From Fonticula-like sp. SCN 57-25 (taxonomy: Eukaryota): DNA of 56,765 nucleotides. The translations under genes and the position numbers were made by a program. The notes beneath the pieces were generated by a model. The model was not told the DNA's origin, did not search any database, and saw nothing but the letters and a program-made list of their open reading frames with translations. This document shows positions 9,434 through 46,616 of this stretch, one piece after another. The stretch is taken from contig MEDX01000020.1 of assembly GCA_001724245.1 (NCBI GenBank), forward strand, positions 1-56,765, read 5' to 3'. Position 1 is the stretch's first letter, and each line of letters begins with the position of its first letter.

Positions 9434-10706
9434 TACGACACGCGAACGACGATGTAACCACACGGAGCCGTCGACGCCGTCAGATCGCGGGGGCAAAACC
9501 TCACGTCGGGAGAGAGGCAAGGGCGCACAAAGCAACGAGCTGAAAAACAGCGACAGCCCTCTGCTCCCTTTTGTGCTGTGCGTCAGCCTCCTCAAGGGAC
9601 AGCGTGAAAATTTCGGCTAATTCCAGACATTCCAAAGAAGGAGTTGACCTCGAATATACCCTTCCTGCCGCCGGGCGCAACAAACTAGAACTGCCAATGG
9701 CAACTGGAGTTGCGCCACGCCCCCTTCGCTTCCTTCCGACCGTATTAACTAAAACATAGGTTCCTGAAAGGGAACCCCCTGGCTCCGTCGCCTCGGAAAA
9801 ACAGCCGGGTTAACACACGTCGCATAATTGAGTGCCGGCCGCCATGAAAGGGGCCGATTGTCGAGTCGCCGGCGACATCACGTGCCGGGTGAAAGCGGCG
9901 ATGCCGAGTTAACACGCAACCGAACCGCAACTGACCGCATTCGAACACTGGCCAATCTGTACACTGTACTTTTAATGGGAACGAAAGGCAGTGGTACCGA
10001 GAACGCTGCTTGGCCACAGCATAGAAGCGTGCGCCGAAAACAGGTACAGTTCAACTTTGGCCCTTGCGGGTTTATTAATAACAGAAATGAGGCGCGGTAC
10101 TTGCGCACAGGAAAGCCCATATGAATACCATGCGCTAGATACTATGGGAATCAAATGCACACACAAATGCGGTGGTGCTCTGCAGCTCTAGAGCCAGTCC
10201 TCGTATAGCAATGCAATACTTTAACTTATACGCCACCATCCTTGCATTGTAAGATTGGAAAGCCGACCTGCGGCACTCGAAACGTGTGCTGATAATCTGT
10301 ACGTGCGTGCTCGGCAGCCACGCGGGGACGCGTGTGTGACGATTCAGCGCATATTGAATTTTACATAACAGTCAACTATAGTCTCATAAGAGTCGCACGT
10401 CAAGTTGGTATGGCCATTCCCGTATCCAGCACGAATGCACCAATGCATGGCTATACCAGTGACACTGCGGGTCGACCTTCAGTGTCCCCATTGACGCGTA
10501 ACCCTCCCATGTACCCTCCCGCCGCCTCTCTTCCCTGCCCGCTGCCGGCCTAGAGCCGGCGCGGCTCTCCCCGCACTGAATGCGCGGCCGCCCGCCCCAT
10601 CTCACGTGATGTGATGATACGCGCGACGTGATTGGCCGCGGCGCCAAAGAGCCTTTGCTTTTCTCAAGTGACCTCCACTGTGTTTGTGTCCACTTGCTCA
10701 GCAGCC

Positions 10707-12155
10707 ATGGCGACGCTGACCACGACGAACGGCAACCCGGTTGACAACAACCAGGTCTCGCTGACCGCCGGTGCGGGCGGCCCGATCCTCCTCCAGGACT
10801 TTCACCTGATCGACAAGCTCTCGCACTTTGACCGCGAGCGCACCCCCGAGCGTGTTGTGCACGCCAAGGGCGCCGGCGCGCACGGCTTCTTTGAGGTGAC
10901 GCACGATGTCAGCGACATCTGCAAGGCCAAGTTCCTTAACGCGATTGGCAAGCGCACGCCGACCTTCCTGCGCTTCTCGACCGTCGGCGGCGAGAAGGGC
11001 TCGGCCGACACGGCGCGCGATCCCCGCGGCTTCGCCCTCAAGTTTTACACCGAGGAGGGCAACTGGGACATGACCGGCAACAACACGCCCGTCTTCTTCA
11101 TCCGCGACCCGATCAAGTTCCCCGACTTTATCCACACCCAGAAGCGCAACGCTCGCACCAACCTCAAGGACGCTGATGCCGTCTGGGACTTTGCCTCGCT
11201 CGCCCCCGAGTCGATCCACCAGTTCTCGGTCCTCTTCTCGAACCGCGGCACGCCCGACGGCTTCCGCCACCTCAACGGCTACTCGTCCCACGCCCTCAAG
11301 GTCGTCAACGCGCAGGGCGTCCCGCACCTCGTCCAGTGGCACTTCAAGACCAACCAGAAGATCAAGAACCTCTCGGACGCCCAGGCGGGCAAGATCGCCG
11401 GCGACGACGCCGACTATGCCACGCGCGACCTCTTTGACTCGATCGAGCGCGGTGACTTCCCCAGCTGGAACGTCTTTGTCCAGGTCATGACCATGGAGCA
11501 GGTCGCCACCTACCGCTGGAACCCGTATGATGTCACCAAGGTGTGGCCCCACAAGGACTTCCCCCTGCGCCCCGTCGGCCGCCTCACGCTCAACCGCAAC
11601 CCCGAGAACTACTTCGCCGAGGTGGAGCAGGCTGCCTTTTCGCCGTCGCACATGGTGCCCGGCATTGAGCCGTCGCTCGACAAGATGCTCCAGGGTCGCC
11701 TCTTCTCGTACCCCGACACCCACCGCCACCGCCTCGGTGTCAACTACACCAGCATCCCGATCAACACGCCGTTCGCCGCGCGCGTCGCCAACTACCAGCG
11801 CGATGGCGCCGCCGTCGTCAACGGCAACGGCGGCTCGGGCCCCAACTACGAGCCCAACTCGGCTGGAGGCCCCGTCCAGGCCGGTGCCTACGCCGCCGTC
11901 CACAAGTTCCCCGTCCAGGGCGTCGCTGAGCGCGCCATTGTGCCCATCACCGACGACGACTTTGCCCAGGCCGGCAACCTCTACCGCCTCCTCTCGGCCA
12001 GCGAGAAGACCGACCTTGTCAACAACATCGTCGGCTCCATGAGCGGCGCCAAGAAGCACATCCAGCAGCGCCAGGTGGCCCACTTCAAGCGCGCCGACCC
12101 CGAGTACGGCGCCCGCATTGAGGCCGGCCTCCTCAAGCAGTCCACCAAGCTGTAA
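10707..12155 (+). CDS. CAT: Monofunctional heme catalase, peroxisomal (PTS1-like -TKL), intronless
   Basis: FDRERTPERVVHAKGAGAHG, RFSTVGGEKGSADTARDPRGFALKFYTEEGNWD, QGRLFSYPDTHRHRLG; ends QSTKL*. Confidence 0.98.
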   Translation: MATLTTTNGNPVDNNQVSLTAGAGGPILLQDFHLIDKLSHFDRERTPERVVHAKGAGAHGFFEVTHDVSDICKAKFLNAIGKRTPTFLRFSTVGGEKGSADTARDPRGFALKFYTEEGNWDMTGNNTPVFFIRDPIKFPDFIHTQKRNARTNLKDADAVWDFASLAPESIHQFSVLFSNRGTPDGFRHLNGYSSHALKVVNAQGVPHLVQWHFKTNQKIKNLSDAQAGKIAGDDADYATRDLFDSIERGDFPSWNVFVQVMTMEQVATYRWNPYDVTKVWPHKDFPLRPVGRLTLNRNPENYFAEVEQAAFSPSHMVPGIEPSLDKMLQGRLFSYPDTHRHRLGVNYTSIPINTPFAARVANYQRDGAAVVNGNGGSGPNYEPNSAGGPVQAGAYAAVHKFPVQGVAERAIVPITDDDFAQAGNLYRLLSASEKTDLVNNIVGSMSGAKKHIQQRQVAHFKRADPEYGARIEAGLLKQSTKL

Positions 12156-12266
12156 ACAGCTGCTTTGCTGCTGCCGATCGTGTGTTCTTTCGCTTTGTAA
12201 TCCCTTCCTTGCCAGCAATGGACTCTTACTTTTACTTGACATTATACGCATTCAATCATTTACAAC

Positions 12267-37373: not shown

Positions 37374-37859
37374 TGACGACAGACGCTTGCTGGCCACCCA
37401 GACCAAGCAGACCGACGTTCAAAGGGATGCGCCGAGCGGGCTGCACCGGCCGTTCAAATCCAACAGATATGATGCAAACTGACAGCAGTTTGCATCATTG
37501 ATAGAATGATGCTGGAATGATGAAAGCTGGATGAAAGCACAAGTAAGGTGCGGCGCCCAGCTCTGCCTTTGAGGGCTTGTGTGCGCAAGTGGGGGCTTTT
37601 ATTAAGATAATTCCACTATTACAAGAGGCAGAACCATACACCATAGAGCACCATTGAGCGTCGCATGGTCCCATAAAATCTCATTAAGTGCACTACTATC
37701 AAAGTCTAATGTGGTTTGTGAAAATGTAGCATGGATAGTGGAAATGATATCTTGAATCCGCATTTTATTGGAAACAAACAAACGGTAAACAAATAAATAA
37801 TGCTTCAAAAACAATAACAAGAAAGAATCGCTTTTTACTGCAGGACTCGGTTCACTAAA

Positions 37860-40800
37860 CTACTCGGAATCCTCAGAATCGCTCTCCTCCTCCTCCTCAT
37901 CCTCAGACTCCTCCTCATCCTCAGACTCATCCTCATCCTCCGACTCCTCATCCTCAGAGTCGGTCTCCTCCTCCTCGGAATCAGACTCCTCCTCCTCTTC
38001 CTCCTCCTCCGACTCCTCAGACGAGGCGACGGCGACCTGGGCGGCCTGGAGGGACTGCAGATCATTGTCGCGCTGCGAGTCGGCGGTGTCCTGCTGGGCG
38101 AGCTGCTGCTTCTTCTGGGCGCGCTGGCGGAGAACCTCGTCGCGGCGGCGGGCAGCGTCATCGTCATCCTCAGACTCCTCCTCAGACTCCTCCTCCTCCT
38201 CCTCGTCCTCATCCTCCTCATCATCATACTCCTCCTCATCGTCCTCAGAATCCTCATCCTCAGACTCCTCGTCCTCAGACTCGTCCTCAGACTCCTCCTC
38301 CTCGTCGGAATCCTCATAGTCCTCGTCGTCCGACTCGTCCTCGTCATCGTCATAGTCAGACTCGTCCTCAACGGCGGCGGCCGAAGGAGTGGCGCGGATG
38401 GCGGTGGCGGCAACAACGGGGGCGGCCGTCTTGTTCTGGAGGTGGGACGCGTACGTCGGGGGCGCCTGGTACGGGGGCAGGTCGCGCTTGGGCACCATAA
38501 TGGCACCGCCGGCGACGACGCCAGCCGAGCCATCGGCAACAACCGGGAGGGCCTCCTGGGTCTTGAGGTCGACCGGGCGGGCCTTGGCGCGGCGGAGCGT
38601 GAAGAAACCGGCAATGGCGAGGCCGATCACACCAACGGCACCAACAACGGCGACGGCGGCAATGGCACCAGTCGACAGGCCAGCGGTCGTAGAGGGCTCC
38701 GGCGGGCGGGGCACCGAGTTGACAATGAGCGCAAACTCGGAGAGGTGGTTGCACTGGCAGACAACGCGGTTGCCGGTGACGACATCGAGGTCCACGCGGA
38801 CGGTACGGCAGCCATAGTTGCTGAACGCGTTCTGGCTGGCATCAAAGAACGAGCAGACGGCGCTGACAATGTTGGCAGTGTCGTTGGAACCAGCCTGGAG
38901 AAGCGAAACGGCCGTGTTGTCGAGCTCGAGCGAGAAGGTGAACGAGGCGCCAACATTCGAGTTGATGTCGAGCGGGGTGCCATCGGCATCGTAGAGCGAG
39001 AGCGAGGCAAACTTGTTGTTGACATACGATGTGCCGTTACCAGCGAACGAGTCCGTGAACACGTTGGCGTTGATGGCACCGCACTGGACACCGACACCGC
39101 CCGACGGGAGCAGGGAGCTGTTGGTGAAGGTACCGACAAAGCTCGAGCAGAACTCGGTAGCCGTGGGCGACGCAAGCGAGCACGCGAGCGAAAAGTCGGT
39201 CGACTCGAACGCAACGGGGTTCTGGCCAACGCTAAGGAGACGCGTCTGGCAAGCGCAGGAAGCCGCAACAAACTCGGTGTAGCACGAGGTAAGGTTGGAC
39301 GCCTCGGTACCGTTGAACTCGCCGAGGTTGAAGGCGGTGATCATCGAGCTCTGGATCTTGGACGACGAAATGAACGTGGCCAGATCGTAGCACTCGCCAA
39401 GAGCCTGGGACGTCTCGGACATGGACTTGACAATGTTGCGGGCACCGCAGAAGAAGGTCTCGATATCAGAGAACGTGACATCACCAGCAGTGGCACGCTT
39501 GCGGCGCCTCTCCTGAATCGTGGTCAAGCCCTCGGCAGCCTGAGCAAGCACGTTGGCGACGACAGGGCCAACCTGAGTGTGATCCGGGTTGGGAACGGTG
39601 CGCAGCAGGAAGTCAGAGAGGTTGACAAGCTCCTCGCTCGTGAAAACGTCGGCGAGGTTCACGTTGTTGAGCGAGCTGATGGCGGACAGGACAACAAGCG
39701 GGTCGGTCGTCGTCGAGGAAATGAGATCGTTCATGTAGCCAGTGATCTGAGACGTGGTAACCGGGGTCATGGTAACATCACCGGCAACGACGGTGGCCGC
39801 AGAGCCTGCGGTATCAGTGACGAGGGCGACGCCAGTAGTCACACCGGCCGGCAGGTTGCTGGTGAACACGTTGCCGTAGCCAGGAACCGAGAGAGGCGAA
39901 AGGGCGCCAGAGGCCAGGCGCTGGTTAATCTGGAACGTGTTAAGCAGGGCGTCCGTCGAGAAACCGAAGCAGCCAAAGACCGCCTGCTCGATCGTAGCCT
40001 GGCCGGTGGCCGGAGCAGCGGGCGAGACAACCTGGCAGCGACCAGCGTGGGCGCCGACGGGGAGCGAGAAGCCAAAGGAGAACGCGCGCGACAGCTCACC
40101 ACGAGTAACGTTAAGGCCAACCGCAAAAGCGCCACCGGCCATGAGAGTCGACGGGCCAAACTTGAAGCTCACCGAAGAACCAGAACCCGTGGCAACCAGG
40201 CGGTTGTTCACGTTCGCAACCGTAACGGCGGCCGGCGACGAGAACGACGCCGCAGAGAACGGCGGCGAGTGGTACTGCGCAAGCGACAGGCCAGTCATGG
40301 AAACAGTGATGGTCTCGGTCGAGCCGTCAGTGGACGTGCAGGTAATTCCAGAAGACGCCGAGGACGCCGCAAAGGACGAGGGGGTCATCGAGCAGGACAG
40401 CGGAGCGGTCGACGGAGTACCAAGAGAAATGGTCTGGAACGCGCTGACAGCAACAGGAACATACGGGAGAGCCGCAGGCACGCGGTGCGACAGCGTGAGC
40501 CTCACAGTGATCGGGAAGTTGGCCGGATGAACGGTGGAAAGATCGAGCGAGAACGTCGGCGTGGTCTGGGTAACAAACACGCGAGGGCTCGGGATGTCAA
40601 TGCGGCAAACCTGGCCGTCGACCGACAGGCAAGTCCACGAGAACACATACGTGTCCTCAAGGCTCGCCGCGCCGCGGTACGAAGGATCCGAAATAGTGGG
40701 AACGATCGTGAACGGACCGGCCGAGGCGGTCGTGGCAATGCCGTTGGGCAGCGTGACCGACATCGCGCCACCGGGGAGGGCGGTGAACTCCTTCGACACC

Positions 40801-43800
40801 ACGCGGGTGAGGCCAGTGCCAGCCTGGGTAGCGGTGAACGTCGCGCGGTACGAGCGGAACACAGCGGTAGTGAAGGGCGGCAGGGTGACCATGGTCGAAG
40901 TGGCGCCAGTGAGCGCAACAGGGACAGAGCCGCCACCAGTGATATCAGTCAAGGTCCAGAGGAAAGTGAAGCCACCAGCGGCGACGGTGCAGCCAGGAGT
41001 GGGAACCATGGTGGCCACAAGGTTGCGCGGCTGCGAAGGAACCATGGCGCTGCTGGCCGACAGAGTAAAGGTCGGGAGAGCAGCCGCCTCAACAGCCATA
41101 CGCTGGGTCTGAGTCGAGCGGGCACCGCAAGAGTTGGTGATCGAAACGGAGAAGACAATGACGGCATTCGGGACGAAAAGAGCACCATCCGAGTTGTCAA
41201 GAACGACGTTCTGAGCCTTGTTGGCGGTGGCGGTCGCAAAGAGGGTCGTCAGGCGGGCAATAACGGCCTCCACATCAACGGGCGAGGCGGCGCGCGTCTG
41301 GTCAGCATCGATAACCCACTCCACAGCGGTCGGCGGCAAGCTTCCAAGACCCTGGGTGGCCTCAACACTGATGGGAAGAGTGGAGACGCAAGACGAAACC
41401 GACGAAGGGGCAGAGAGCGAAATGATCGGAAGGCGAGCGCTGTTGGTAGGGTTGACGACAACAGATCCCGACAGGAAATCCGAATACAGGTGCACGCTGC
41501 TCTTGATCGTGTTCTCGCGGAAAGTGAGCACGGAGTTCTGGGTCAGCGGGGTATCGACACCGTTCTCCAGAGTGGCAGTCGCAAAGCTCGAGTTCGACAT
41601 AATAAAGAGCGTGGTCGGGCTCAAGAACACCGACTGGCAAGCGGAACCGAAAGGAAGCACGGCGTTCGGCGGGGCGATCGAGGTAAGGTTCAGGATAGAA
41701 TCGCAGTCGATCCAGCCGGAAGTCGTGGTGCCAGAGGCAATGGTGACGGCCTGGTCAAAGAGAACGACAGCTCCACTGCAGGTGTCGACCATGTTCGCCT
41801 GACGAATGCCAGCAGCGTTGCGGAAATACGTAACCGCGACCTCGATGGGACCAGCGGTGGGGATGACAGCCTCCGCGTTGTAAACATTGCCGATAGCAAC
41901 CTGCACAAAGATGTAGTCCGAAATGGACGAATAGGCAATCTCGCAGACAAGGTTTCCGCCGGTAAAGGTAGCAACCGTCGGGAAGACAATGTTGCCGGGA
42001 ACGAGCGGCGAGGCGGCATACGCAGTAGCAGAGGCCGGATCGGCAAGCGCGGCCGGGGGCAGATGGTACCAGCACTTGGTGGGCTGGCCAAAGCTAGCCT
42101 GAGAATCAAAGAAGTGATCACCCTCCACCGTCATCATCATATTCGAAGTGGAAATGTACGACTTGACGTTGAAGGTGCTGATCTGCGCTCCGTTGACGTT
42201 CACGCTCGTGATAGAGGTACGATCAGACATGATAGTCAACTTGGTGGTAGCGGTCGTGTTGGTGGAGACCGGGTCGTAAACGTAAACGTCAAACGACACA
42301 AGGGGCGTAGGGCGGGCAAAAGCGCGCGCCCACTGAACCTGCATAAGCGACATGCTGGTGCGAAGAACAGTAAGGCCATCGGTGCTGCCATTGACAAAGA
42401 CAACCGACTGAGAATTGAAGCCACCGCCGATAACCTCGAAGAAGTACGAGTGCTCCGGGTTGTACTTGATGGCCACGGGAGAAACCGAGATCAAGGCGAA
42501 GCAGTTGGTCGAGTTACCAAAGCCAAAGCACTCGCCGCACGCGTCATAGCCGGTCTCAGGATCGAGGTCGGGGCGAGTGATCGAGGCAAAGAGCTGACCG
42601 TTGCAAGCCTGGCACGGGCAGTCAGGGTTGACCTCGAACGGCGACTTGACCGCGTCGCGGTAGTCATCCACAGACTGCTGAGTACAGGCGCCGCCGCAAA
42701 CGTTGCAGAGATCGGTGACGACCGGGGTGTTGGTGCAAGTCTGCGTGCAGTCGACAGTCCAGCTGAAGTACTCGGGGTTCTCGGGGCACTGACCCTTGCA
42801 GTTGAGAATATCAGAGTTGGCGCTGTAGCAAGCACCGCAAATGAAAACCTCGCCGACAGCGCAAGGAATCTCGGTCTGGGTCGGAATGGCAGTGGTGGTA
42901 GCCGCCTCGGTGGTGGTCACAACGGCAGTGGTGGTCACAACGGCAGTGGTGGAGACGACCTCGGTAGTAGTGGCAGCAGCCGTGGTGGAAATAACCTCAG
43001 TCGTCGTGACAACGGCGGTCGTGGTGATCAGGCTGGTCGAGTTGGTAACCTCGGCGAAGCGGCGGTCCACGTCGCGAGCAAAGAACTTGTCGCGAGTGTA
43101 CTGGAGCAGAGCCTGGTGGTCCTCGTCGAGCTGCCAGCTCTCCTGCACGTACGCGCGCATGAAGCGAGCCTGGTTGGCCTTGAGGTCGGTCGTCATAGAC
43201 ATCGACGTCTCGTGGGCGCGGTACCAGTGGAGCGGCTCGGAAATGGTCTGGAGGTTGTGCTTGCGGAGAACAACGCGGGCGAGGAACTCGTAATCCTCAA
43301 AACCAACACCATAGTCCTCCGAGAAACCGTGCATCGAGCGGAAGAAGTCGGTCTGGACGAGCATGGCAGAGTCACCAAACACGTTCTCGAGCATACCGGC
43401 CAGCGAGGCAGCACCAACCGGGACGTAACGCTCAATGACAGACGAGGAGGACGGGACGCCAGCACCGTTGAAGAGGTCGTGACCGGAAGTAACCACATCA
43501 GCCTGGGTGCGAAGGGCAACACGGAGCATCGTCTCGATCTGGTGGGGCTTGGCGAAATCGTCATCGTCCATAAACAGAACGAAGCGACCCTTGGCCTGGC
43601 GGGCACCAGTGTTACGGGCAGCACCGAGGTAACGGTTGGGCTCACGGAGGACCTTCCAGTTGCGCTCCTCATACCACTTCCACGAGAGGTCGTTGAGGTA
43701 AGTGATGGCGGCGGGGTCATCCGAGCCGTCGTCAACAAGAATCACCTCAAAGTTCGTGAACGTCTGTGCCTCGAGCGAAGCAATAGCCTGCTTCAAAAGC

Positions 43801-45380
43801 TCGTGGCGGTTGTGGTGAACGAGGACGACCGAGACCATCGGCTGCTGGCTGTTGGCAACCTGCGGCATGGCGGTGGTGCACGACAGGGGAGCGCCAAGGA
43901 AACCGTCGTGGAGAGAAATCCAACGAGCGCTCAGCTGCTTGGCCGAGTGGCGCGTAGCCGAAGGGGTCGGAAGAACACCCTGCGACAGAACGTTGCTCAC
44001 AGCAGCGGAAAGAGCCGCAGTGCTGTTCGCAGCGAACAGGGCGCCAGTCTCAACGAGCTCAGCAGCGATCGAATCGTGGCGCGAGGCGATCATGGGAATC
44101 TTGGCGAAAGCCAGCTCCAGGGCAAGGGAGCCAGAGTCCTCGACCAGGGAAGGTAGGACGGCAAGACGGCCGGGCGCCTCCTTGAGGTACTGAGAAATAT
44201 CAGCAACAGACTCGAGCTCCAGCACACGAAGGACAAGCGACCAGTGAGCCGAGCGAAGGTCAATGTACTCGTCGCTGCGGAACATCTGGACGGAGCCCGG
44301 GCGACCGAGAAGCGTGATCTTGACGTTCATCTTCTTGAGGGTGGCGTGGAGGGCGTCGACGGTGTCCATGAACACGCTGAGACCGTGCGCGTAGCTGAGA
44401 TCACCAACGTACACGAGCTCGGTAATGCGGGTACCGGCCTGCTTGCTGACGGCAGCAATGGTAGCCGGCAGGTCGGTGATGACAACACCCTTGTTGCTGG
44501 CAACCTTGTAGGAGGCAATCGACGAAACGTGATCAGCGACAACCTTGTCGGCCAGGCGAATGGCCTCGGTGAACATAAAGTCAACCTTGAGGACGTCGCG
44601 GTCGGTCACCATGAGGCTCTGGTCGTTGGCGTTGAGGCGCTGCTCGCGGACGGGCGACTCGGCATCAATGTGGACCACAAAGGTCGCGCGAGAGCAGTAC
44701 AGCACCTGGGACTTGGCGAGAACCGAGTAGTACGCAACCGCGTTGGAAGCGTGGAAGTGCACAATGTCGTACTCGGGGTGCTGCTGGAGCCACAGGTTCA
44801 CCTCGTACGAGAGCGAGATCTTGTCGTTGTTACCATACGTAAGACCGCTCGGGACAAAGCGAATGAGGTTGACGCCACGGGCGGCAAAGGCGGCAGACTC
44901 CTCGGCAAACTGGGGAGACGAAGGACCAACGTAGAGCACGTTGGACTTGAATCCACGGGAGGAGAGCTCAACCGCAAGCTGCTCAAAGTGGCTAGACATG
45001 CGATGACCCTTGTTGAGCGACGCAAAGCCCTCGGTGACGATGAGGACGCTAGCACCGTGAGGCAGATCGGTCAAATCGATCGTCGCATCCTGGCAGTCAT
45101 CGCCGACGAAGCCAAGGTTGCAAACGCAGTTGCCATCATCCGTAAGAATACCATTGTTCGAGCAAGTCGGCAGGCCAATGATAGAAGAGAAAGTACGGCC
45201 AAGGGGGTTGCTCAAAACATTGCGAGGAATAGCAAAGTTACTCATCGCCTGCTCATTGTTCACGATCACGGCGGCGCCGAAAACGGCGACGCAGACAAAA
45301 AGGATGCTAGCAGCGCTCCACAAATAAGTGTTCGCGTGCTGCTGCGCCTTGCGCGGAGCCTCAGCCTGAGGCTTCGCCAT
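37860..45380 (-). CDS. 2506-aa intronless membrane polyprotein: signal anchor - EGF - GT4 - GT2 - Thr-rich stalk - Cys-rich repeats - Ig/TIG-like - REJ-like - GAIN/GPS - TM - PPxY - acidic tail
   Basis: EGF CSNNG...CVCNLGFVGDDC; GT4 AVLPSLVEDSGSLALE; GT2 ILVDDGS, YLGAARNTG, FMDDDD, GFEDYEF; DLCNVCGG/DACGEC; REJ-like FSWTC, GRCQVVSP...FGCFGFSTD; GPS CSFFD...FSNYGC...VVCQCNHLSEFALIV; TM AIAAVAVVGAVGVIGLAIAGFFTL. Confidence 0.88.
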   Translation of the reverse strand: MAKPQAEAPRKAQQHANTYLWSAASILFVCVAVFGAAVIVNNEQAMSNFAIPRNVLSNPLGRTFSSIIGLPTCSNNGILTDDGNCVCNLGFVGDDCQDATIDLTDLPHGASVLIVTEGFASLNKGHRMSSHFEQLAVELSSRGFKSNVLYVGPSSPQFAEESAAFAARGVNLIRFVPSGLTYGNNDKISLSYEVNLWLQQHPEYDIVHFHASNAVAYYSVLAKSQVLYCSRATFVVHIDAESPVREQRLNANDQSLMVTDRDVLKVDFMFTEAIRLADKVVADHVSSIASYKVASNKGVVITDLPATIAAVSKQAGTRITELVYVGDLSYAHGLSVFMDTVDALHATLKKMNVKITLLGRPGSVQMFRSDEYIDLRSAHWSLVLRVLELESVADISQYLKEAPGRLAVLPSLVEDSGSLALELAFAKIPMIASRHDSIAAELVETGALFAANSTAALSAAVSNVLSQGVLPTPSATRHSAKQLSARWISLHDGFLGAPLSCTTAMPQVANSQQPMVSVVLVHHNRHELLKQAIASLEAQTFTNFEVILVDDGSDDPAAITYLNDLSWKWYEERNWKVLREPNRYLGAARNTGARQAKGRFVLFMDDDDFAKPHQIETMLRVALRTQADVVTSGHDLFNGAGVPSSSSVIERYVPVGAASLAGMLENVFGDSAMLVQTDFFRSMHGFSEDYGVGFEDYEFLARVVLRKHNLQTISEPLHWYRAHETSMSMTTDLKANQARFMRAYVQESWQLDEDHQALLQYTRDKFFARDVDRRFAEVTNSTSLITTTAVVTTTEVISTTAAATTTEVVSTTAVVTTTAVVTTTEAATTTAIPTQTEIPCAVGEVFICGACYSANSDILNCKGQCPENPEYFSWTVDCTQTCTNTPVVTDLCNVCGGACTQQSVDDYRDAVKSPFEVNPDCPCQACNGQLFASITRPDLDPETGYDACGECFGFGNSTNCFALISVSPVAIKYNPEHSYFFEVIGGGFNSQSVVFVNGSTDGLTVLRTSMSLMQVQWARAFARPTPLVSFDVYVYDPVSTNTTATTKLTIMSDRTSITSVNVNGAQISTFNVKSYISTSNMMMTVEGDHFFDSQASFGQPTKCWYHLPPAALADPASATAYAASPLVPGNIVFPTVATFTGGNLVCEIAYSSISDYIFVQVAIGNVYNAEAVIPTAGPIEVAVTYFRNAAGIRQANMVDTCSGAVVLFDQAVTIASGTTTSGWIDCDSILNLTSIAPPNAVLPFGSACQSVFLSPTTLFIMSNSSFATATLENGVDTPLTQNSVLTFRENTIKSSVHLYSDFLSGSVVVNPTNSARLPIISLSAPSSVSSCVSTLPISVEATQGLGSLPPTAVEWVIDADQTRAASPVDVEAVIARLTTLFATATANKAQNVVLDNSDGALFVPNAVIVFSVSITNSCGARSTQTQRMAVEAAALPTFTLSASSAMVPSQPRNLVATMVPTPGCTVAAGGFTFLWTLTDITGGGSVPVALTGATSTMVTLPPFTTAVFRSYRATFTATQAGTGLTRVVSKEFTALPGGAMSVTLPNGIATTASAGPFTIVPTISDPSYRGAASLEDTYVFSWTCLSVDGQVCRIDIPSPRVFVTQTTPTFSLDLSTVHPANFPITVRLTLSHRVPAALPYVPVAVSAFQTISLGTPSTAPLSCSMTPSSFAASSASSGITCTSTDGSTETITVSMTGLSLAQYHSPPFSAASFSSPAAVTVANVNNRLVATGSGSSVSFKFGPSTLMAGGAFAVGLNVTRGELSRAFSFGFSLPVGAHAGRCQVVSPAAPATGQATIEQAVFGCFGFSTDALLNTFQINQRLASGALSPLSVPGYGNVFTSNLPAGVTTGVALVTDTAGSAATVVAGDVTMTPVTTSQITGYMNDLISSTTTDPLVVLSAISSLNNVNLADVFTSEELVNLSDFLLRTVPNPDHTQVGPVVANVLAQAAEGLTTIQERRRKRATAGDVTFSDIETFFCGARNIVKSMSETSQALGECYDLATFISSSKIQSSMITAFNLGEFNGTEASNLTSCYTEFVAASCACQTRLLSVGQNPVAFESTDFSLACSLASPTATEFCSSFVGTFTNSSLLPSGGVGVQCGAINANVFTDSFAGNGTSYVNNKFASLSLYDADGTPLDINSNVGASFTFSLELDNTAVSLLQAGSNDTANIVSAVCSFFDASQNAFSNYGCRTVRVDLDVVTGNRVVCQCNHLSEFALIVNSVPRPPEPSTTAGLSTGAIAAVAVVGAVGVIGLAIAGFFTLRRAKARPVDLKTQEALPVVADGSAGVVAGGAIMVPKRDLPPYQAPPTYASHLQNKTAAPVVAATAIRATPSAAAVEDESDYDDDEDESDDEDYEDSDEEEESEDESEDEESEDEDSEDDEEEYDDEEDEDEEEEEESEEESEDDDDAARRRDEVLRQRAQKKQQLAQQDTADSQRDNDLQSLQAAQVAVASSEESEEEEEEEESDSEEEETDSEDEESEDEDESEDEEESEDEEEEESDSEDSE
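42885..43030 (-). repeat. In-frame 18-nt degenerate tandem repeat encoding a TTT[AE][VA][VIA] mucin-like stalk
   Basis: ITTTAVVTTTEVISTTAAATTTEVVSTTAVVTTTAVVTTTEAATTTAIPT. Confidence 0.8.
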
Positions 45381-45690
45381 TACTCAAATAGATCCCTCGT
45401 TGGAAAACGAGAGTGGGAAACTAAAGAGATGGAGGCGACCAGGTGCGTGCACGATGAGGAGCTGGAGTAAAAAGTGAAGAGAACGGTTGGCGCGCCCTGC
45501 AAGATAAGAGGAAAAGACGTCTAACTATACATTAACATGATGTAATATGATGAATCACAATCGAAAAAAAACTAGATGAGACGATTTAGCGTCTATGCAC
45601 ACGCGTTGACCACGCGTTGACTTTACGTCTAGTCTTATCGTCTAATCGCCGGCAATTGACAGGTTGACAGTAACGTGCAAGAAAAGCTTG

Positions 45691-46616
45691 TCAACGCGTA
45701 GTCCGCCCCTGGCGACGCTCAAGCTCATTTTCATACTCGCGCGCTTCGGTTCGCTGAAGGAATGCAGTGCGCTCCAGGTAGCTATGTAAAAAGAGTTAAA
45801 AACGGCCACATCCTGATTCACATCGCCGTACCCATCCTTGTTGTGGCGCGCCAAATCTTCCTTTTCGGAAGTCGTCGACACATGCGCGTCCCAGTCAAGC
45901 TTTGACTTGCCAAGCACGCTCAGTTTCTCCTTCTTGCCAATTCTGAGTTCAGGTGAGATGGGGTGGCCCACGTGATAGGAAAGAGAGGGCCGACGCACTG
46001 AGAAAGGAGGGCGCCAAAGCCGCCCTGGGGTTTGGGTTTCCCCGCAGGCGCGCTACTGCCAGCCGCTGGTCTCGTTACGCTAAAAAACAATTAATGAGAC
46101 TCTTGAAAAAAGCCAGATGGGCCCAAAGTACCTAATCTTTTCACCAGCAAAAATAACTGTCGATTTTGTCTCGGTTTTCGGAGCCGCCGGAGCGGACGGC
46201 GGCGGCGCAGAAGGGGATTCCTTTAATGAGGATAATGCCATGAGTAAAAAAAGTAAAAAGAAAGAGCCGTACCGAGGTTTTCTTAAACTTTTCATAGAGG
46301 TCATCCACCCTCGCCTTCTTACGAGCTTCCTCCTCGGGATCGACACTCTCCAGCCTGAGATCAAAAAAGGCGGATCAAGTTAGGAAATCATTGCCGTAGC
46401 AAAAAAAAGAGTAAAATATTGCGCACGCTCGCTTTTCAGCCTCGGGTTCTCCTTTAAAGCCAAACAATGAGCAAAAAACACTGGAAAGGGAATCGCGGGT
46501 GACGTACCATCATCGGCTTCGCTGTCATCACCATCACTGGGAACGTACTCGTCATCCTCCTCTTCCTCAGAGTCCTCCTCCTCCTCGCGCTTCTTGCTCG
46601 CAGTGCCCTCCGACAT
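45691..46616 (-). CDS. CFDP1: CFDP1/BCNT/Swc5 family protein, multi-exon
   Basis: Acidic N-terminus DSEEEEDDEYVP; BCNT-C KLSVLGKSKLDW...HNKDG^YLERTAFLQRTEAREYENE. Confidence 0.88.

What the first reader, a model, noticed from the sequence alone, without database searches (positions are those of the whole stretch)
37860..45380. Glycosyltransferase-receptor polyprotein: GT4+GT2 enzymes fused to a polycystin/adhesion-GPCR-type REJ-GAIN ectodomain
Seen in one uninterrupted 2506-aa ORF: N-terminal signal anchor (about 45261-45323), EGF, GT-B/GT4 (about 43930-45050), GT-A/GT2 (about 43150-43840), Thr-rich stalk, Cys-rich DxCxxC repeats, Ig/TIG-like and REJ-like beta regions, a GPS motif (38721-38855), one TM and a cytosolic tail. 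Established: REJ+GAIN/GPS defines polycystin-1-like proteins, and GAIN/GPS defines adhesion GPCRs, which continue into 11 or 7 TMs. I know of no characterised one carrying glycosyltransferases. Inference: the chain loops through the secretory lumen anchored at both ends, so the enzyme half may build a dedicated glycan in cis on its own stalk or surface coat. This would be a eukaryotic one-gene analogue of bacterial adhesin plus dedicated-GT loci. Its codon bias resembles catalase, suggesting a native, well-expressed gene.
Basis: partly seen in the sequence, partly recalled or inferred. Interest (0 to 1): 0.9.

Follow-up and report, generated by a model that had tools for sequence, protein, structure and literature searches.

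The report
Glycosyltransferase fused to REJ-GAIN surface protein
This is a real, single 2506-residue gene of a chytrid-like eukaryote that joins a sugar-adding enzyme to the self-cleaving REJ-GAIN stalk known from polycystin-1 and adhesion receptors; relatives of this uncharacterised family occur in many chytrid fungi.

Summary
Window 37860-45380 (-) is one uninterrupted 2506-codon ORF. It has hydrophobic segments only at residues 18-43 and 2233-2263.

Its parts, in order:
- an EGF-like motif
- a GT4-like (GT-B) domain
- a GT2 (GT-A) domain
- an (AVVTTT)n stalk
- a Cys-rich stretch
- beta-sandwich arrays
- a GAIN domain with an intact HL|S site
- one TM
- a tail with LPPY/PPTY motifs and acidic repeats

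The GAIN fold is confirmed: the AF2 model has pLDDT 88, and its top four PDB matches are all GAIN crystal structures.

REJ is not detectable in this protein by Pfam. Orthologues do score above Pfam's cut-off, and their hits all map to residues 1463-1892. Profile-profile comparison gives E=1.8e-19.

The architecture is not unique. At least 24 long database proteins carry this GT2 module plus GPS and/or REJ, and the named ones come from 14 fungal genera, all labelled 'hypothetical'.

New here: the GT2 catalytic residues are invariant (28/28), but the GT4-like domain has lost the donor-binding R/K (0/28), so it is probably a pseudo-enzyme.

Seven literature searches found no description. Function is inferred, not shown. 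No RNA data were available.

The parts
37860..45380 (-). Complete single-exon CDS, 2506 codons plus stop (protein P0001)
   Evidence: Collinear orthologues.
45252..45329 (-). N-terminal hydrophobic segment, residues 18-43. It is either a signal anchor with the N-terminus in the cytosol or an uncleaved signal peptide.
   Evidence: Kyte-Doolittle scan. Net charge is +2 before it and +1 after it. 22 of 36 GT-bearing relatives have such a segment.
45087..45170 (-). EGF-like 4-Cys motif, residues 71-98
   Evidence: EGF_Teneurin 20.1 bits, under the 24.3 cut-off. Orthologue P0045 scores 28.9 bits. The CxC..G..G..C pattern is conserved in the family consensus.
43911..45059 (-). GT4-like GT-B domain, residues about 108-490, probably catalytically degenerate
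   Evidence: Glyco_trans_1_4 39.5 bits. The R/K donor-binding positions are kept in 0 of 28 rows of the eukaryotic clade, against 51 and 49 of 55 bacterial-type rows. E414-x7-E422 is kept in this protein only.
43101..43847 (-). GT2 GT-A domain, residues about 512-760, with an intact catalytic signature: VDDGS 549-553, DDDD 605-608, GDS 669-671, FEDYE 694-698, WYR 719-721
   Evidence: Glycos_transf_2 E=9e-26. PDB sequence matches to 3bcv, 5hea and 2z86. D550, D605-607, E695 and R721 are each kept in 28 of 28 rows.
42876..43049 (-). Thr-rich mucin-like stalk, residues 778-835, built of (AVVTTT)-type 6-residue repeats
42486..42875 (-). Cys-rich region, residues 836-965: 16 Cys and two D.C..C.G motifs
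   Evidence: It aligns with P0002. No Pfam family matches it.
41811..42485 (-). Beta-rich region, residues 966-1190, possibly IPT/TIG-like (lead only)
   Evidence: Atlas TIG lead 0.77. TIG below cut-off in P0049. No structure was predicted for this part.
40995..41810 (-). Beta-sandwich array before the Pfam-REJ span, residues 1191-1462, homologous to the N-terminal part of single-pass REJ-GPS proteins
   Evidence: hhalign prob 99.9, E=8.5e-33 over 928 columns. AF2 model.
39756..40994 (-). REJ-homologous region, residues 1463-1875
   Evidence: Seven Pfam REJ hits in relatives all map inside residues 1463-1892. hhalign on this region alone gives E=1.8e-19; the reversed control gives 0.49. This protein has no direct Pfam hit.
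38709..39755 (-). GAIN domain, residues 1876-2224: helical subdomain A 1876-2046, beta subdomain B 2056-2224, with the GPS motif
   Evidence: AF2 pLDDT 88.1, pTM 0.85. Foldseek top 4 are BAI3, BAI3, BAI2 and GPR110 GAIN structures, E 1.3e-10 to 3.1e-7, and the next hit is at 1e-3. Pfam GPS 29.7 bits.
38739..38747 (-). Predicted autoproteolysis site H2212-L2213 | S2214, within CQCNHL|SEFALIV
   Evidence: The C.C.H[LMI][ST].[FY] pattern is present in 22 of 36 GT-bearing relatives.
38592..38684 (-). Single C-terminal transmembrane helix, residues 2233-2263
   Evidence: It is helical in the AF2 model. RRAKAR follows it.
38451..38480 (-). Conserved cytosolic LPPY-x2-PPTY pair (PY motifs), residues 2301-2310
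   Evidence: Family consensus LPxYxxPPxYxxH. The pair is present in 19 of 32 relatives that have a tail, and at least one motif in 24 of 32.
37863..38393 (-). Acidic low-complexity tail of Asp/Glu/Ser repeats, residues about 2330-2506; specific to the P0001/P0002/P0025 sub-clade

Best explanation
Shown:
- The locus encodes one native eukaryotic membrane glycoprotein that is anchored at both ends, with both termini in the cytosol.
- Everything between the anchors faces the secretory lumen or the cell exterior. In order: an EGF-like motif, a GT-B domain, a GT2 domain, a Thr-rich stalk, a Cys-rich piece, an array of beta-sandwiches that includes a REJ-homologous module, and a bona fide GAIN domain with an intact HL|S site.
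- It belongs to a monophyletic family found in Chytridiomycota, Gonapodya and a metchnikovellid.

Inferred, most likely mechanism:
- The N-terminal half is laid out like a Golgi type-II glycosyltransferase.
- Its GT2 domain, whose catalytic residues are invariant, uses a UDP-sugar in the Golgi lumen to add beta-linked sugar. The acceptor would be its own mucin-like stalk and/or neighbouring cell-coat or wall glycoconjugates, modified while the protein travels to the surface.
- The GT-B domain has lost its donor-binding residues. It would serve as a scaffold or acceptor-binding partner.
- The GAIN domain cleaves itself at L2213|S2214. This leaves a membrane-anchored enzyme-plus-ectodomain fragment held non-covalently to a short type-I stub.
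- The stub's LPxY/PPxY motifs recruit an Rsp5/NEDD4-type ubiquitin ligase for endocytosis and turnover.
- At the surface, the REJ-GAIN stalk would act as an adhesion or force-sensing element, as in polycystin-1 and sea-urchin REJ proteins.
For: One gene:
- The ORF is uninterrupted.
- Collinear full-length relatives exist.
- 24 of the 120 listed long proteins that carry this GT module also carry GPS and/or REJ in the precomputed Pfam column.

Topology:
- There are only two hydrophobic segments.
- Positive charges lie on the outer flanks: +2 before TM1 and RRAKAR after TM2.
- EGF, the Cys-rich region and GAIN are extracytosolic domain types. 14 of the 15 N-x-S/T sequons lie between the anchors.

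GT2 looks active:
- Pfam E=9e-26.
- The nearest solved relatives are inverting UDP-sugar GT2 enzymes.
- D550, D605-607, E695 and R721 are each kept in 28 of 28 rows.

GT-B looks degenerate:
- R327, R331 and K332 equivalents are kept in 0 of 28 eukaryotic rows, against 51, 51 and 49 of 55 bacterial-type rows.
- The NGGIG loop is lost.

GAIN: pLDDT 88.1, and the top four Foldseek hits are all GAIN crystal structures. The cleavage triad is present.

REJ.

PY pair conserved in position.

Native gene: GC3 is uniform along the gene and like most neighbours. The 28 eukaryotic GT modules form one clade, SH-like support 100.
Against: - No activity, cleavage, localisation or expression data exist. No RNA run was listed.
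- Whether the first hydrophobic segment is an anchor or a cleaved signal peptide was not tested with a dedicated predictor.
- The GPS triad is lost in 14 of 36 relatives, some of which are truncated models, so cleavage is not essential to the family.
- 8 of 32 tails lack PY motifs.
- The roles I assign to the GT4 R/K, Gly-loop and E-x7-E residues, and to PY motifs, are recalled from the literature and were not tested here.
- The label 'bacterial-type' for the 55 comparison rows is my own. It rests on a few names and on TPR/multi-GT Pfam content.
- Cis-glycosylation of the stalk is pure inference.
Confidence: 0.5

Rival explanations
1. It is a lectin-headed receptor. At the cell surface there is no nucleotide sugar, so the GT-B/GT2 pair works as a non-catalytic glycan-binding head on a REJ-GAIN stalk. 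This would be analogous to the C-type lectin domains of polycystin-1 and sea-urchin REJ proteins. It would sense host, substrate or wall polysaccharide and signal through the cleaved stub.
For: The GT-B domain has lost its donor-binding residues. REJ-family proteins are associated with lectin domains and glycan ligands (recalled; the polycystin-1 domain list was seen in passages of PMC3677617). The protein has surface-receptor-like features: GAIN, one TM and a conserved tail motif.
Against: Every GT2 catalytic or metal-binding position checked is invariant in 28 of 28 rows. That is hard to explain without catalysis. A pure binding domain would be expected to drift the way the GT-B domain did.
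Confidence: 0.2
2. It is a Golgi- or ER-resident enzyme with a regulatory luminal tail. The protein never functions at the surface. REJ-GAIN serves as a luminal folding checkpoint or retention module, and the PY motifs route excess protein to the vacuole. The product would be a wall or coat polysaccharide or glycolipid made in trans, not on its own stalk.
For: The N-terminal half has a type-II Golgi-GT-like layout. PY motifs are classical sorting signals for Golgi-to-vacuole traffic (recalled). A short form with SP-EGF-GT2-TM and no REJ/GAIN exists as a transcript in a marine protist, P0010. This shows the enzyme half can work without the stalk.
Against: About 1400 residues of mucin stalk, beta-sandwich array and GAIN are conserved across the family. 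This is typical of surface-exposed proteins. GAIN domains characterised so far sit on cell-surface proteins (PMC3321182, abstract seen in the listing).
Confidence: 0.2
3. It is an artefact: two adjacent genes (a GT gene and a REJ-GPS gene) read through by chance, or a recent bacterial insertion or assembly chimera.
For: Stand-alone GT4-GT2 proteins of 765-804 aa exist in bacteria. Stand-alone REJ-GPS single-pass proteins of about 1300 aa also exist: P0029, P0031, P0032.
Against: The frame runs 7.5 kb without a stop. The same fusion is found in independent assemblies of 14 named genera. GC3 is uniform across the domains, 0.65-0.80. The eukaryotic GT modules are monophyletic and their tree roughly follows taxonomy.
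Confidence: 0.02

Closest known systems
Sea-urchin sperm receptor-for-egg-jelly proteins and other single-pass REJ-GPS proteins (polycystin-1 superfamily ectodomain)
   Same: It has a REJ-homologous beta-sandwich module directly followed by GAIN/GPS and then a membrane span. The whole of residues 1189-2256 aligns with REJ+GPS single-pass proteins P0029/P0031/P0032 at E=8.5e-33. That suREJ1 has a single TM is recalled, not checked here.
   Different: It carries a GT-B/GT2 enzyme module and its own N-terminal anchor. It has no C-type lectin, LRR or PKD-repeat hits. Its host is fungal or holomycotan.
Polycystin-1 (PKD1) family
   Same: REJ plus GAIN with an HL|S/T site. The REJ module is an FNIII-like beta-sandwich array (PMC3677617 passages), as in the model here.
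   Different: It has no 11-TM region and no PLAT or channel-like domain. Only one hydrophobic segment follows the GPS, so it is not a polycystin-1 family member in the strict sense.
Adhesion GPCRs (BAI3/ADGRB3, BAI2, GPR110 GAIN domains)
   Same: The GAIN fold: TM-score about 0.5 and E=1e-10 to 4dlo. The GPS motif has four Cys and HL|S followed by a hydrophobic 'SEFALIV' strand.
   Different: It has no 7tm_2 domain. Published surveys report fungal adhesion-type GPCRs without GPS/GAIN N-termini (PMC3251606 and PMC12716839 passages). Here GAIN sits on a single-pass enzyme fusion instead.
Bacterial GT4-GT2 two-domain glycosyltransferases, stand-alone (about 770-800 aa) or inside about 2100-aa multi-GT/TPR 'O-antigen biosynthesis' proteins
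   Same: 29-33% identity over 76-89% of the module. The GT2 motifs are identical.
   Different: The bacterial proteins are presumably cytoplasmic and keep a full GT4 active-site signature. The eukaryotic clade is extracytosolic, has a degenerate GT4, and is fused to EGF, stalk, REJ and GAIN. No NCBIfam equivalog reaches its cut-off.
Luminal two-domain glycan polymerases of animals (LARGE1, EXT1/2) and fungal mucin-stalk wall sensors (Wsc/Mid2). These are functional analogies only, recalled.
   Same: It works like them in principle: a luminal type-II enzyme acting on a mucin-like glycoprotein, and a Ser/Thr-rich rod plus one TM plus a cytosolic tail as a surface mechanosensor.
   Different: No sequence relationship was found or tested. 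Here one of the two GT domains is probably inactive.

Membership tests
Glycosyltransferase family 2 (Pfam PF00535, GT-A) | Profile match above the curated cut-off | tested here: met
   91.2 bits against 23.3, residues 517-641
Glycosyltransferase family 2 (Pfam PF00535, GT-A) | Nucleotide-binding Asp and the DxD metal/diphosphate motif (roles recalled) | tested here: met
   VDDGS 549-553 and DDDD 605-608. D550 and D605-607 are kept in 28 of 28 eukaryotic and 54-55 of 55 bacterial-type rows.
Glycosyltransferase family 2 (Pfam PF00535, GT-A) | Transferase activity and donor/acceptor identity | not testable with these tools
   Needs an enzyme assay
GT4-type GT-B glycosyltransferases (PF13692/PF00534/PF13439) | Profile match above the cut-off | tested here: met
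   Glyco_trans_1_4 39.5 against 27. Glycos_transf_1 26.9 against 26.4. The N-terminal half, Glyco_transf_4, scores 22.1, below 28.5.
GT4-type GT-B glycosyltransferases (PF13692/PF00534/PF13439) | Donor-phosphate-binding Arg/Lys in the G-R-x4-(R)K-G motif and the N-terminal Gly-rich loop (roles recalled) | tested here: not met
   P0001 has D327, A331 and H332. R/K is kept in 0 of 28 rows of the eukaryotic clade, against 51, 51 and 49 of 55 bacterial-type rows. NGGIG is replaced.
GT4-type GT-B glycosyltransferases (PF13692/PF00534/PF13439) | E-x7-E motif (role recalled) | tested here: inconclusive
   Present in P0001 (E414...E422). In the clade the first position is D in 20 of 28 rows and E in 3 of 28. 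The second E is kept in only 6 of 28.
GAIN domain / GPS | GPS motif profile above the cut-off, with four Cys | tested here: met
   29.7 bits against 22.5. C2176, C2191, C2208 and C2210.
GAIN domain / GPS | Two-subdomain GAIN fold: helical subdomain A plus beta-sandwich subdomain B | tested here: met
   Model pLDDT 88.1. The top four PDB matches are GAIN structures, E 1.3e-10 to 3.1e-7.
GAIN domain / GPS | Cleavage triad H-L|S/T | tested here: met
   H2212-L2213|S2214
GAIN domain / GPS | Actual autoproteolysis | not testable with these tools
   Needs a western blot of tagged protein alongside an S2214A mutant
REJ domain (Pfam PF02010) | Profile match in this protein | tested here: not met
   No hit at E<=1 on the whole protein or at E<=10 on segments
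REJ domain (Pfam PF02010) | Homology to sequences that do pass the Pfam cut-off | tested here: met
   Orthologues P0040 66.8, P0049 65.6, P0045 58.5 and P0095 29.7 bits, cut-off 25. All map to residues 1463-1892. hhalign E=1.8e-19, reversed control 0.49.
Polycystin-1 family | 11-TM region with PLAT and a channel-like C-terminal part after the GPS | tested here: not met
   One hydrophobic segment follows the GPS. No PLAT or PKD_channel hit.
Adhesion GPCR (class B2) | 7tm_2 domain after GAIN | tested here: not met
   No PF00002 hit. One TM.

The most novel reading that the evidence does not exclude
This is a self-cleaving, doubly anchored 'enzyme-on-a-GAIN-leash'. Autoproteolysis at L2213|S2214 would convert one chain into two pieces that stay associated: a type-II-anchored luminal GT2 enzyme carrying the REJ-GAIN ectodomain, and a PY-motif type-I stub. 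Force or ligand on the stalk would separate them and so couple cell-surface mechanics or adhesion to the trafficking or turnover of a glycan-building enzyme. That would give the ancient REJ-GAIN module a glycan-centred, non-GPCR, non-channel role in early fungi. It would also be a rare case of extracytosolic GT2/GT4-derived domains in a eukaryote.
Probability: 0.15. Interest if true: 0.85.

Novelty: new variant of a known kind. Interest (0 to 1): 0.62.

Why it matters
GAIN and REJ modules are studied almost only in animal adhesion GPCRs and polycystins. There, cleavage and the tethered strand drive signalling and disease. Published surveys that I read in passages state that fungal adhesion-type GPCRs lack GPS/GAIN N-termini.

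This gene, with relatives in 14 named fungal genera, shows three things:
- A complete REJ-GAIN unit with an intact cleavage motif exists in zoosporic fungi.
- It sits on a single-pass protein.
- It is welded to a glycosyltransferase module most similar to bacterial-type GT4-GT2 proteins.

It offers a simple, non-GPCR setting in which to ask what GAIN cleavage does. It is also a candidate player in the poorly known chemistry of the chytrid cell coat and wall, and an example of a cytoplasmic-type GT2/GT4 cassette moved to the secretory lumen. None of the functional ideas is yet tested.

Tried and rejected
- No whole genome is held for the window.
- RNA evidence: no RNA holder was listed for 37500-45700.
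- The VIA-align libraries were not on the machine.
- Direct Pfam REJ on this protein gave nothing at E<=10.
- Foldseek on the 1113-residue model was dominated by generic multi-beta-sandwich proteins (CD109, alpha-2-macroglobulins, contactins), with BAI3 GAIN only at rank 34. The GAIN region was therefore refolded alone.
- In that second alignment (A2), the first 24 or so query columns were misaligned to N-terminal and GT2 residues of the full-length rows. Those residues have the lowest pLDDT (68-73).
- The Atlas search for residues 820-1195 gave only a 0.77 TIG lead.
- NCBIfam gave no equivalog for the GT module. All hits were far below their cut-offs.
- phmmer of residues 1150-2262 against 1.84 billion representatives found only 11 proteins at E<=1e-3.
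- The first whole-length word search found only 4 relatives, probably because low-complexity words swamped the candidate list. The GT-region search found 131.
- Membership of polycystin-1 or adhesion GPCRs was considered and rejected because there is no 11-TM or 7-TM region.
- A recent bacterial insertion was considered and rejected because GC3 is uniform and the eukaryotic clade is monophyletic.
- The 1904-aa '+' strand ORF at 38442-44156 was considered and rejected. I take it as a shadow of the GC3-rich gene; it was not searched.
- Supplementary files of the GPCR-evolution papers could not be opened. They might list fungal GAIN proteins.
Full report
**1. The observation**

Window 37860-45380 on the minus strand is one ATG-initiated frame of 2506 codons with no stop. 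A Kyte-Doolittle scan finds only two hydrophobic segments, at residues 18-43 and 2233-2263.

Pfam on the whole protein gives:
- Glycos_transf_2 at 517-641 (91.2 bits, E=9e-26)
- Glyco_trans_1_4 at 322-466 (39.5 bits, cut-off 27)
- Glycos_transf_1 (26.9 bits, cut-off 26.4)
- Glyco_transf_4 at 129-241 (22.1 bits, below cut-off)
- a Teneurin-type EGF at 71-98 (20.1 bits, below cut-off)
- GPS at 2175-2218 (29.7 bits, cut-off 22.5)

The Thr-rich stalk is an 18-nt tandem array at 42910-43027. Residues 840-960 hold 16 Cys.

The surrounding ORFs are ordinary nuclear genes: an MgtE-type transporter, START, coatomer gamma, Not3, bZIP, HMG box and asparaginase. GC3 of the gene is 0.75. It ranges from 0.65 to 0.80 in all nine parts of the gene. 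Eight of the nine neighbouring ORFs have 0.73-0.84, and the HMG-box ORF has 0.58. No whole genome is held for this window.

**2. It is one conserved gene, not a chance fusion**

A word search over the whole length found only four long relatives, two of them 'hypothetical proteins' of Nowakowskiella. One of these, P0005, is collinear from the EGF motif to the GPS.

Searching long proteins (1378-4386 aa) with the GT region alone gave 131 hits, of which 120 were listed.
- 24 of the 120 carry GT2 together with GPS and/or REJ in the precomputed Pfam column.
- The named ones come from Quaeritorhiza, Obelidium, Podochytrium, Chytriomyces, Dinochytrium, Zopfochytrium, Entophlyctis, Cladochytrium, Phlyctochytrium, Irineochytrium, Gonapodya, Physocladia, an unassigned Chytridiales isolate and the metchnikovellid Amphiamblys.
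- With Nowakowskiella that makes 14 named genera. All are annotated 'hypothetical' or 'uncharacterized'.

A FastTree of 86 GT modules puts the 28 eukaryotic fusion-type modules in one clade (SH-like support 100), with this protein sister to the unnamed P0002 (support 99). FastTree is a quick method and the tree is unrooted. I therefore claim monophyly of the fusion-type modules, not a donor.

**3. The enzyme half**

Stand-alone GT4-GT2 proteins of 765-804 aa, two of them named as bacterial (Commensalibacter and a Vicinamibacterales MAG), match 76-89% of the module at 29-33% identity. About 2100-aa multi-GT/TPR proteins labelled 'O-antigen biosynthesis protein' match at 33-39%. No NCBIfam equivalog comes near its cut-off. 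The nearest solved sequences are inverting UDP-sugar GT2 enzymes: 3bcv, GalT1 5hea, chondroitin polymerase 2z86 and heparosan synthase 8vh7.

I aligned 85 modules. These were 83 of the 142 phmmer-positive proteins, kept because one match spanned both halves, plus P0006 and P0009. I split them into 28 eukaryotic fusion-type rows, 55 that I labelled bacterial-type, and 2 Pucciniomycotina yeast rows.

| Position | Eukaryotic clade | Bacterial-type rows |
|---|---|---|
| GT2: D550, D605, D606, D607, E695, R721 | 28/28 each | 45/55 (E695), 54-55/55 (the rest) |
| GT-B: Arg at 327 | 0/28 | 51/55 |
| GT-B: Arg at 331 | 0/28 | 51/55 |
| GT-B: Lys at 332 | 0/28 | 49/55 |
| GT-B: first Glu of E-x7-E | D in 20/28, E in 3/28 | 46/55 |
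| GT-B: second Glu of E-x7-E | 6/28 | 49/55 |

The bacterial-type rows also keep NGGIG, which is replaced in the eukaryotic clade. This protein itself keeps E414 and E422.

The catalytic roles of these GT4 residues are recalled from the literature. On that basis the GT-B domain of the family is most likely a pseudo-enzyme, and GT2 is the working catalyst.

**4. Topology**

The N-terminal flank carries net +2. The C-terminal helix is followed by RRAKAR. EGF-like, Cys-rich and GAIN domains are extracytosolic types, and 14 of 15 sequons lie between the two hydrophobic segments. No further hydrophobic segment exists.

By the positive-inside rule (established knowledge), both termini are cytosolic and the whole GT-to-GAIN chain is luminal or extracellular. 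Two shorter relatives begin with signal-peptide-like N-termini followed by EGF (P0006, P0010). No dedicated predictor was available to decide between a signal anchor and a cleaved signal peptide.

**5. The REJ-GAIN half**

phmmer of residues 1150-2262 against 1.84 billion representatives found only 11 proteins. Four of them have Pfam REJ, and several have GPS. P0029 matches collinearly in three blocks, including its own REJ and GPS.

hhalign of a four-sequence family profile against four REJ-bearing proteins gave probability 99.9 and E=8.5e-33 over 928 columns, covering residues 1189-2256.

Orthologues pass Pfam's REJ cut-off of 25 bits: P0040 66.8, P0049 65.6, P0045 58.5 and P0095 29.7. Seven REJ hits in relatives all map within residues 1463-1892. 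hhalign restricted to that region gave E=1.8e-19, against 0.49 for reversed templates. The regions compared were picked using alignment A1. This protein itself has no REJ hit, even at E<=10.

AF2 on residues 1150-2262 with 31 sequences gave pLDDT 75.4. The model shows:
- a run of beta-sandwiches
- about 170 residues of helices
- a beta domain
- the TM helix

Foldseek on it returned mainly multi-beta-sandwich proteins, with BAI3 GAIN at rank 34.

Refolding residues 1872-2235 alone gave pLDDT 88.1 and pTM 0.85. The four best PDB matches are all GAIN crystal structures: 4dlo_B, 4dlo_A, 8oek and 8hc0, with E from 1.3e-10 to 3.1e-7 and TM about 0.42-0.52. The fifth hit is at E=1e-3.

The cleavage motif reads CQCNHL|SEFALIV. 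The pattern C.C.H[LMI][ST].[FY] is present in 22 of 36 GT-bearing relatives. It is altered or missing in 14, some of which are truncated models.

**6. The tail**

The family consensus after the TM is LPxYxxPPxYxxH. Here it is LPPY 2301 and PPTY 2307. Of the 32 relatives that have a tail:
- 19 have the pair
- 5 have one motif
- 8 have none

That such PY motifs bind WW domains of Rsp5/NEDD4 ligases is recalled. The long acidic repeat tail is shared only with P0002 and P0025.

**7. Reading and comparison**

The protein is a member of GT2 and carries a true GAIN domain and a REJ-homologous module. It fails the defining features of polycystin-1 (11 TM, PLAT) and of adhesion GPCRs (7tm_2).

The mechanism I favour (confidence about 0.5) has three parts:
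- a luminal GT2 that glycosylates its own stalk or neighbouring coat material on the way to the surface
- a GAIN-cleaved, doubly anchored ectodomain that acts in adhesion or force sensing
- PY-directed turnover

The rivals are a non-catalytic lectin head, a Golgi-resident enzyme, and an artefact.

**8. Literature**

Seven full-text searches found no paper describing a glycosyltransferase-REJ-GAIN protein.
- Passages of PMC3251606 and PMC12716839 describe GPS/GAIN N-termini as a holozoan feature of adhesion GPCRs. They cite Arac et al. 2012 for GAIN predating Holozoa.
- PMC3677617 passages describe REJ as FNIII-like.
- PMC6712302 passages concern a different, Gal_Lectin, domain.

No RNA run was listed.

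**Verdict**

The feature is real and correctly located. It is a new variant of a known kind, of moderately high interest.

Noticed in passing
window 10707-12155 (+): A 482-aa ORF contains a catalase-like motif at about 11028; the motif was recalled from memory. The overlapping 517-aa minus-strand ORF (10698-12251) had no Pfam hit and is probably its shadow. It was not run through Pfam.
   Followed up: partly
window 38442-44156 (+): A 1904-aa open frame lies on the strand opposite the gene. I take it as a shadow ORF caused by GC3-rich codons, not a gene. It was not searched.
   Followed up: no
window about 39495-39509 (-), residues 1958-1962: An RRRKR run sits inside GAIN subdomain A. It looks like a dibasic (Kex2/furin-type) site. 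It is shared as RRR only with the closest relatives P0002, P0025 and P0028. It might be a second processing site.
   Followed up: no
P0123, P0129, P0131, P0132, P0137: Pucciniomycotina yeasts (Rhodotorula, Rhodosporidiobolus, Sporobolomyces) have about 2000-aa proteins with GT4+GT2 plus a GT8 domain (PF01501). The two examined keep the bacterial-type GT4 motifs. This is a separate eukaryotic use of the same cassette.
   Followed up: partly
P0010 (MMETSP transcript, 767 aa): This is a short form: signal peptide, full 6-Cys EGF, truncated GT-B, GT2, a spacer, one TM and a short tail, with no REJ/GAIN. It shows that the EGF-GT2 unit is transcribed and membrane-tethered in a marine protist.
   Followed up: partly
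P0095 (Amphiamblys sp., 1952 aa): A non-flagellated microsporidian relative keeps the whole architecture (GT-B, GT2, REJ, GPS profile, TM). It has lost the HL|S/T triad and the PY motifs. The family is therefore not tied to flagellated stages.
   Followed up: partly
P0038, P0040-42, P0048, P0058, P0100: Chytridiales-type orthologues show a second Ala/Val-rich hydrophobic stretch between the TM and the PY motifs. If it spans the membrane, the PY motifs would face outward in those species. It may instead just be low-complexity sequence.
   Followed up: no
P0006 C-terminus and P0029 N-terminus: The 1152-aa GT-bearing P0006 ends in sequence resembling the start of the 1320-aa REJ-GPS protein P0029. 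Some 'stand-alone' REJ-GPS and GT proteins in databases may be split gene models of this family.
   Followed up: no
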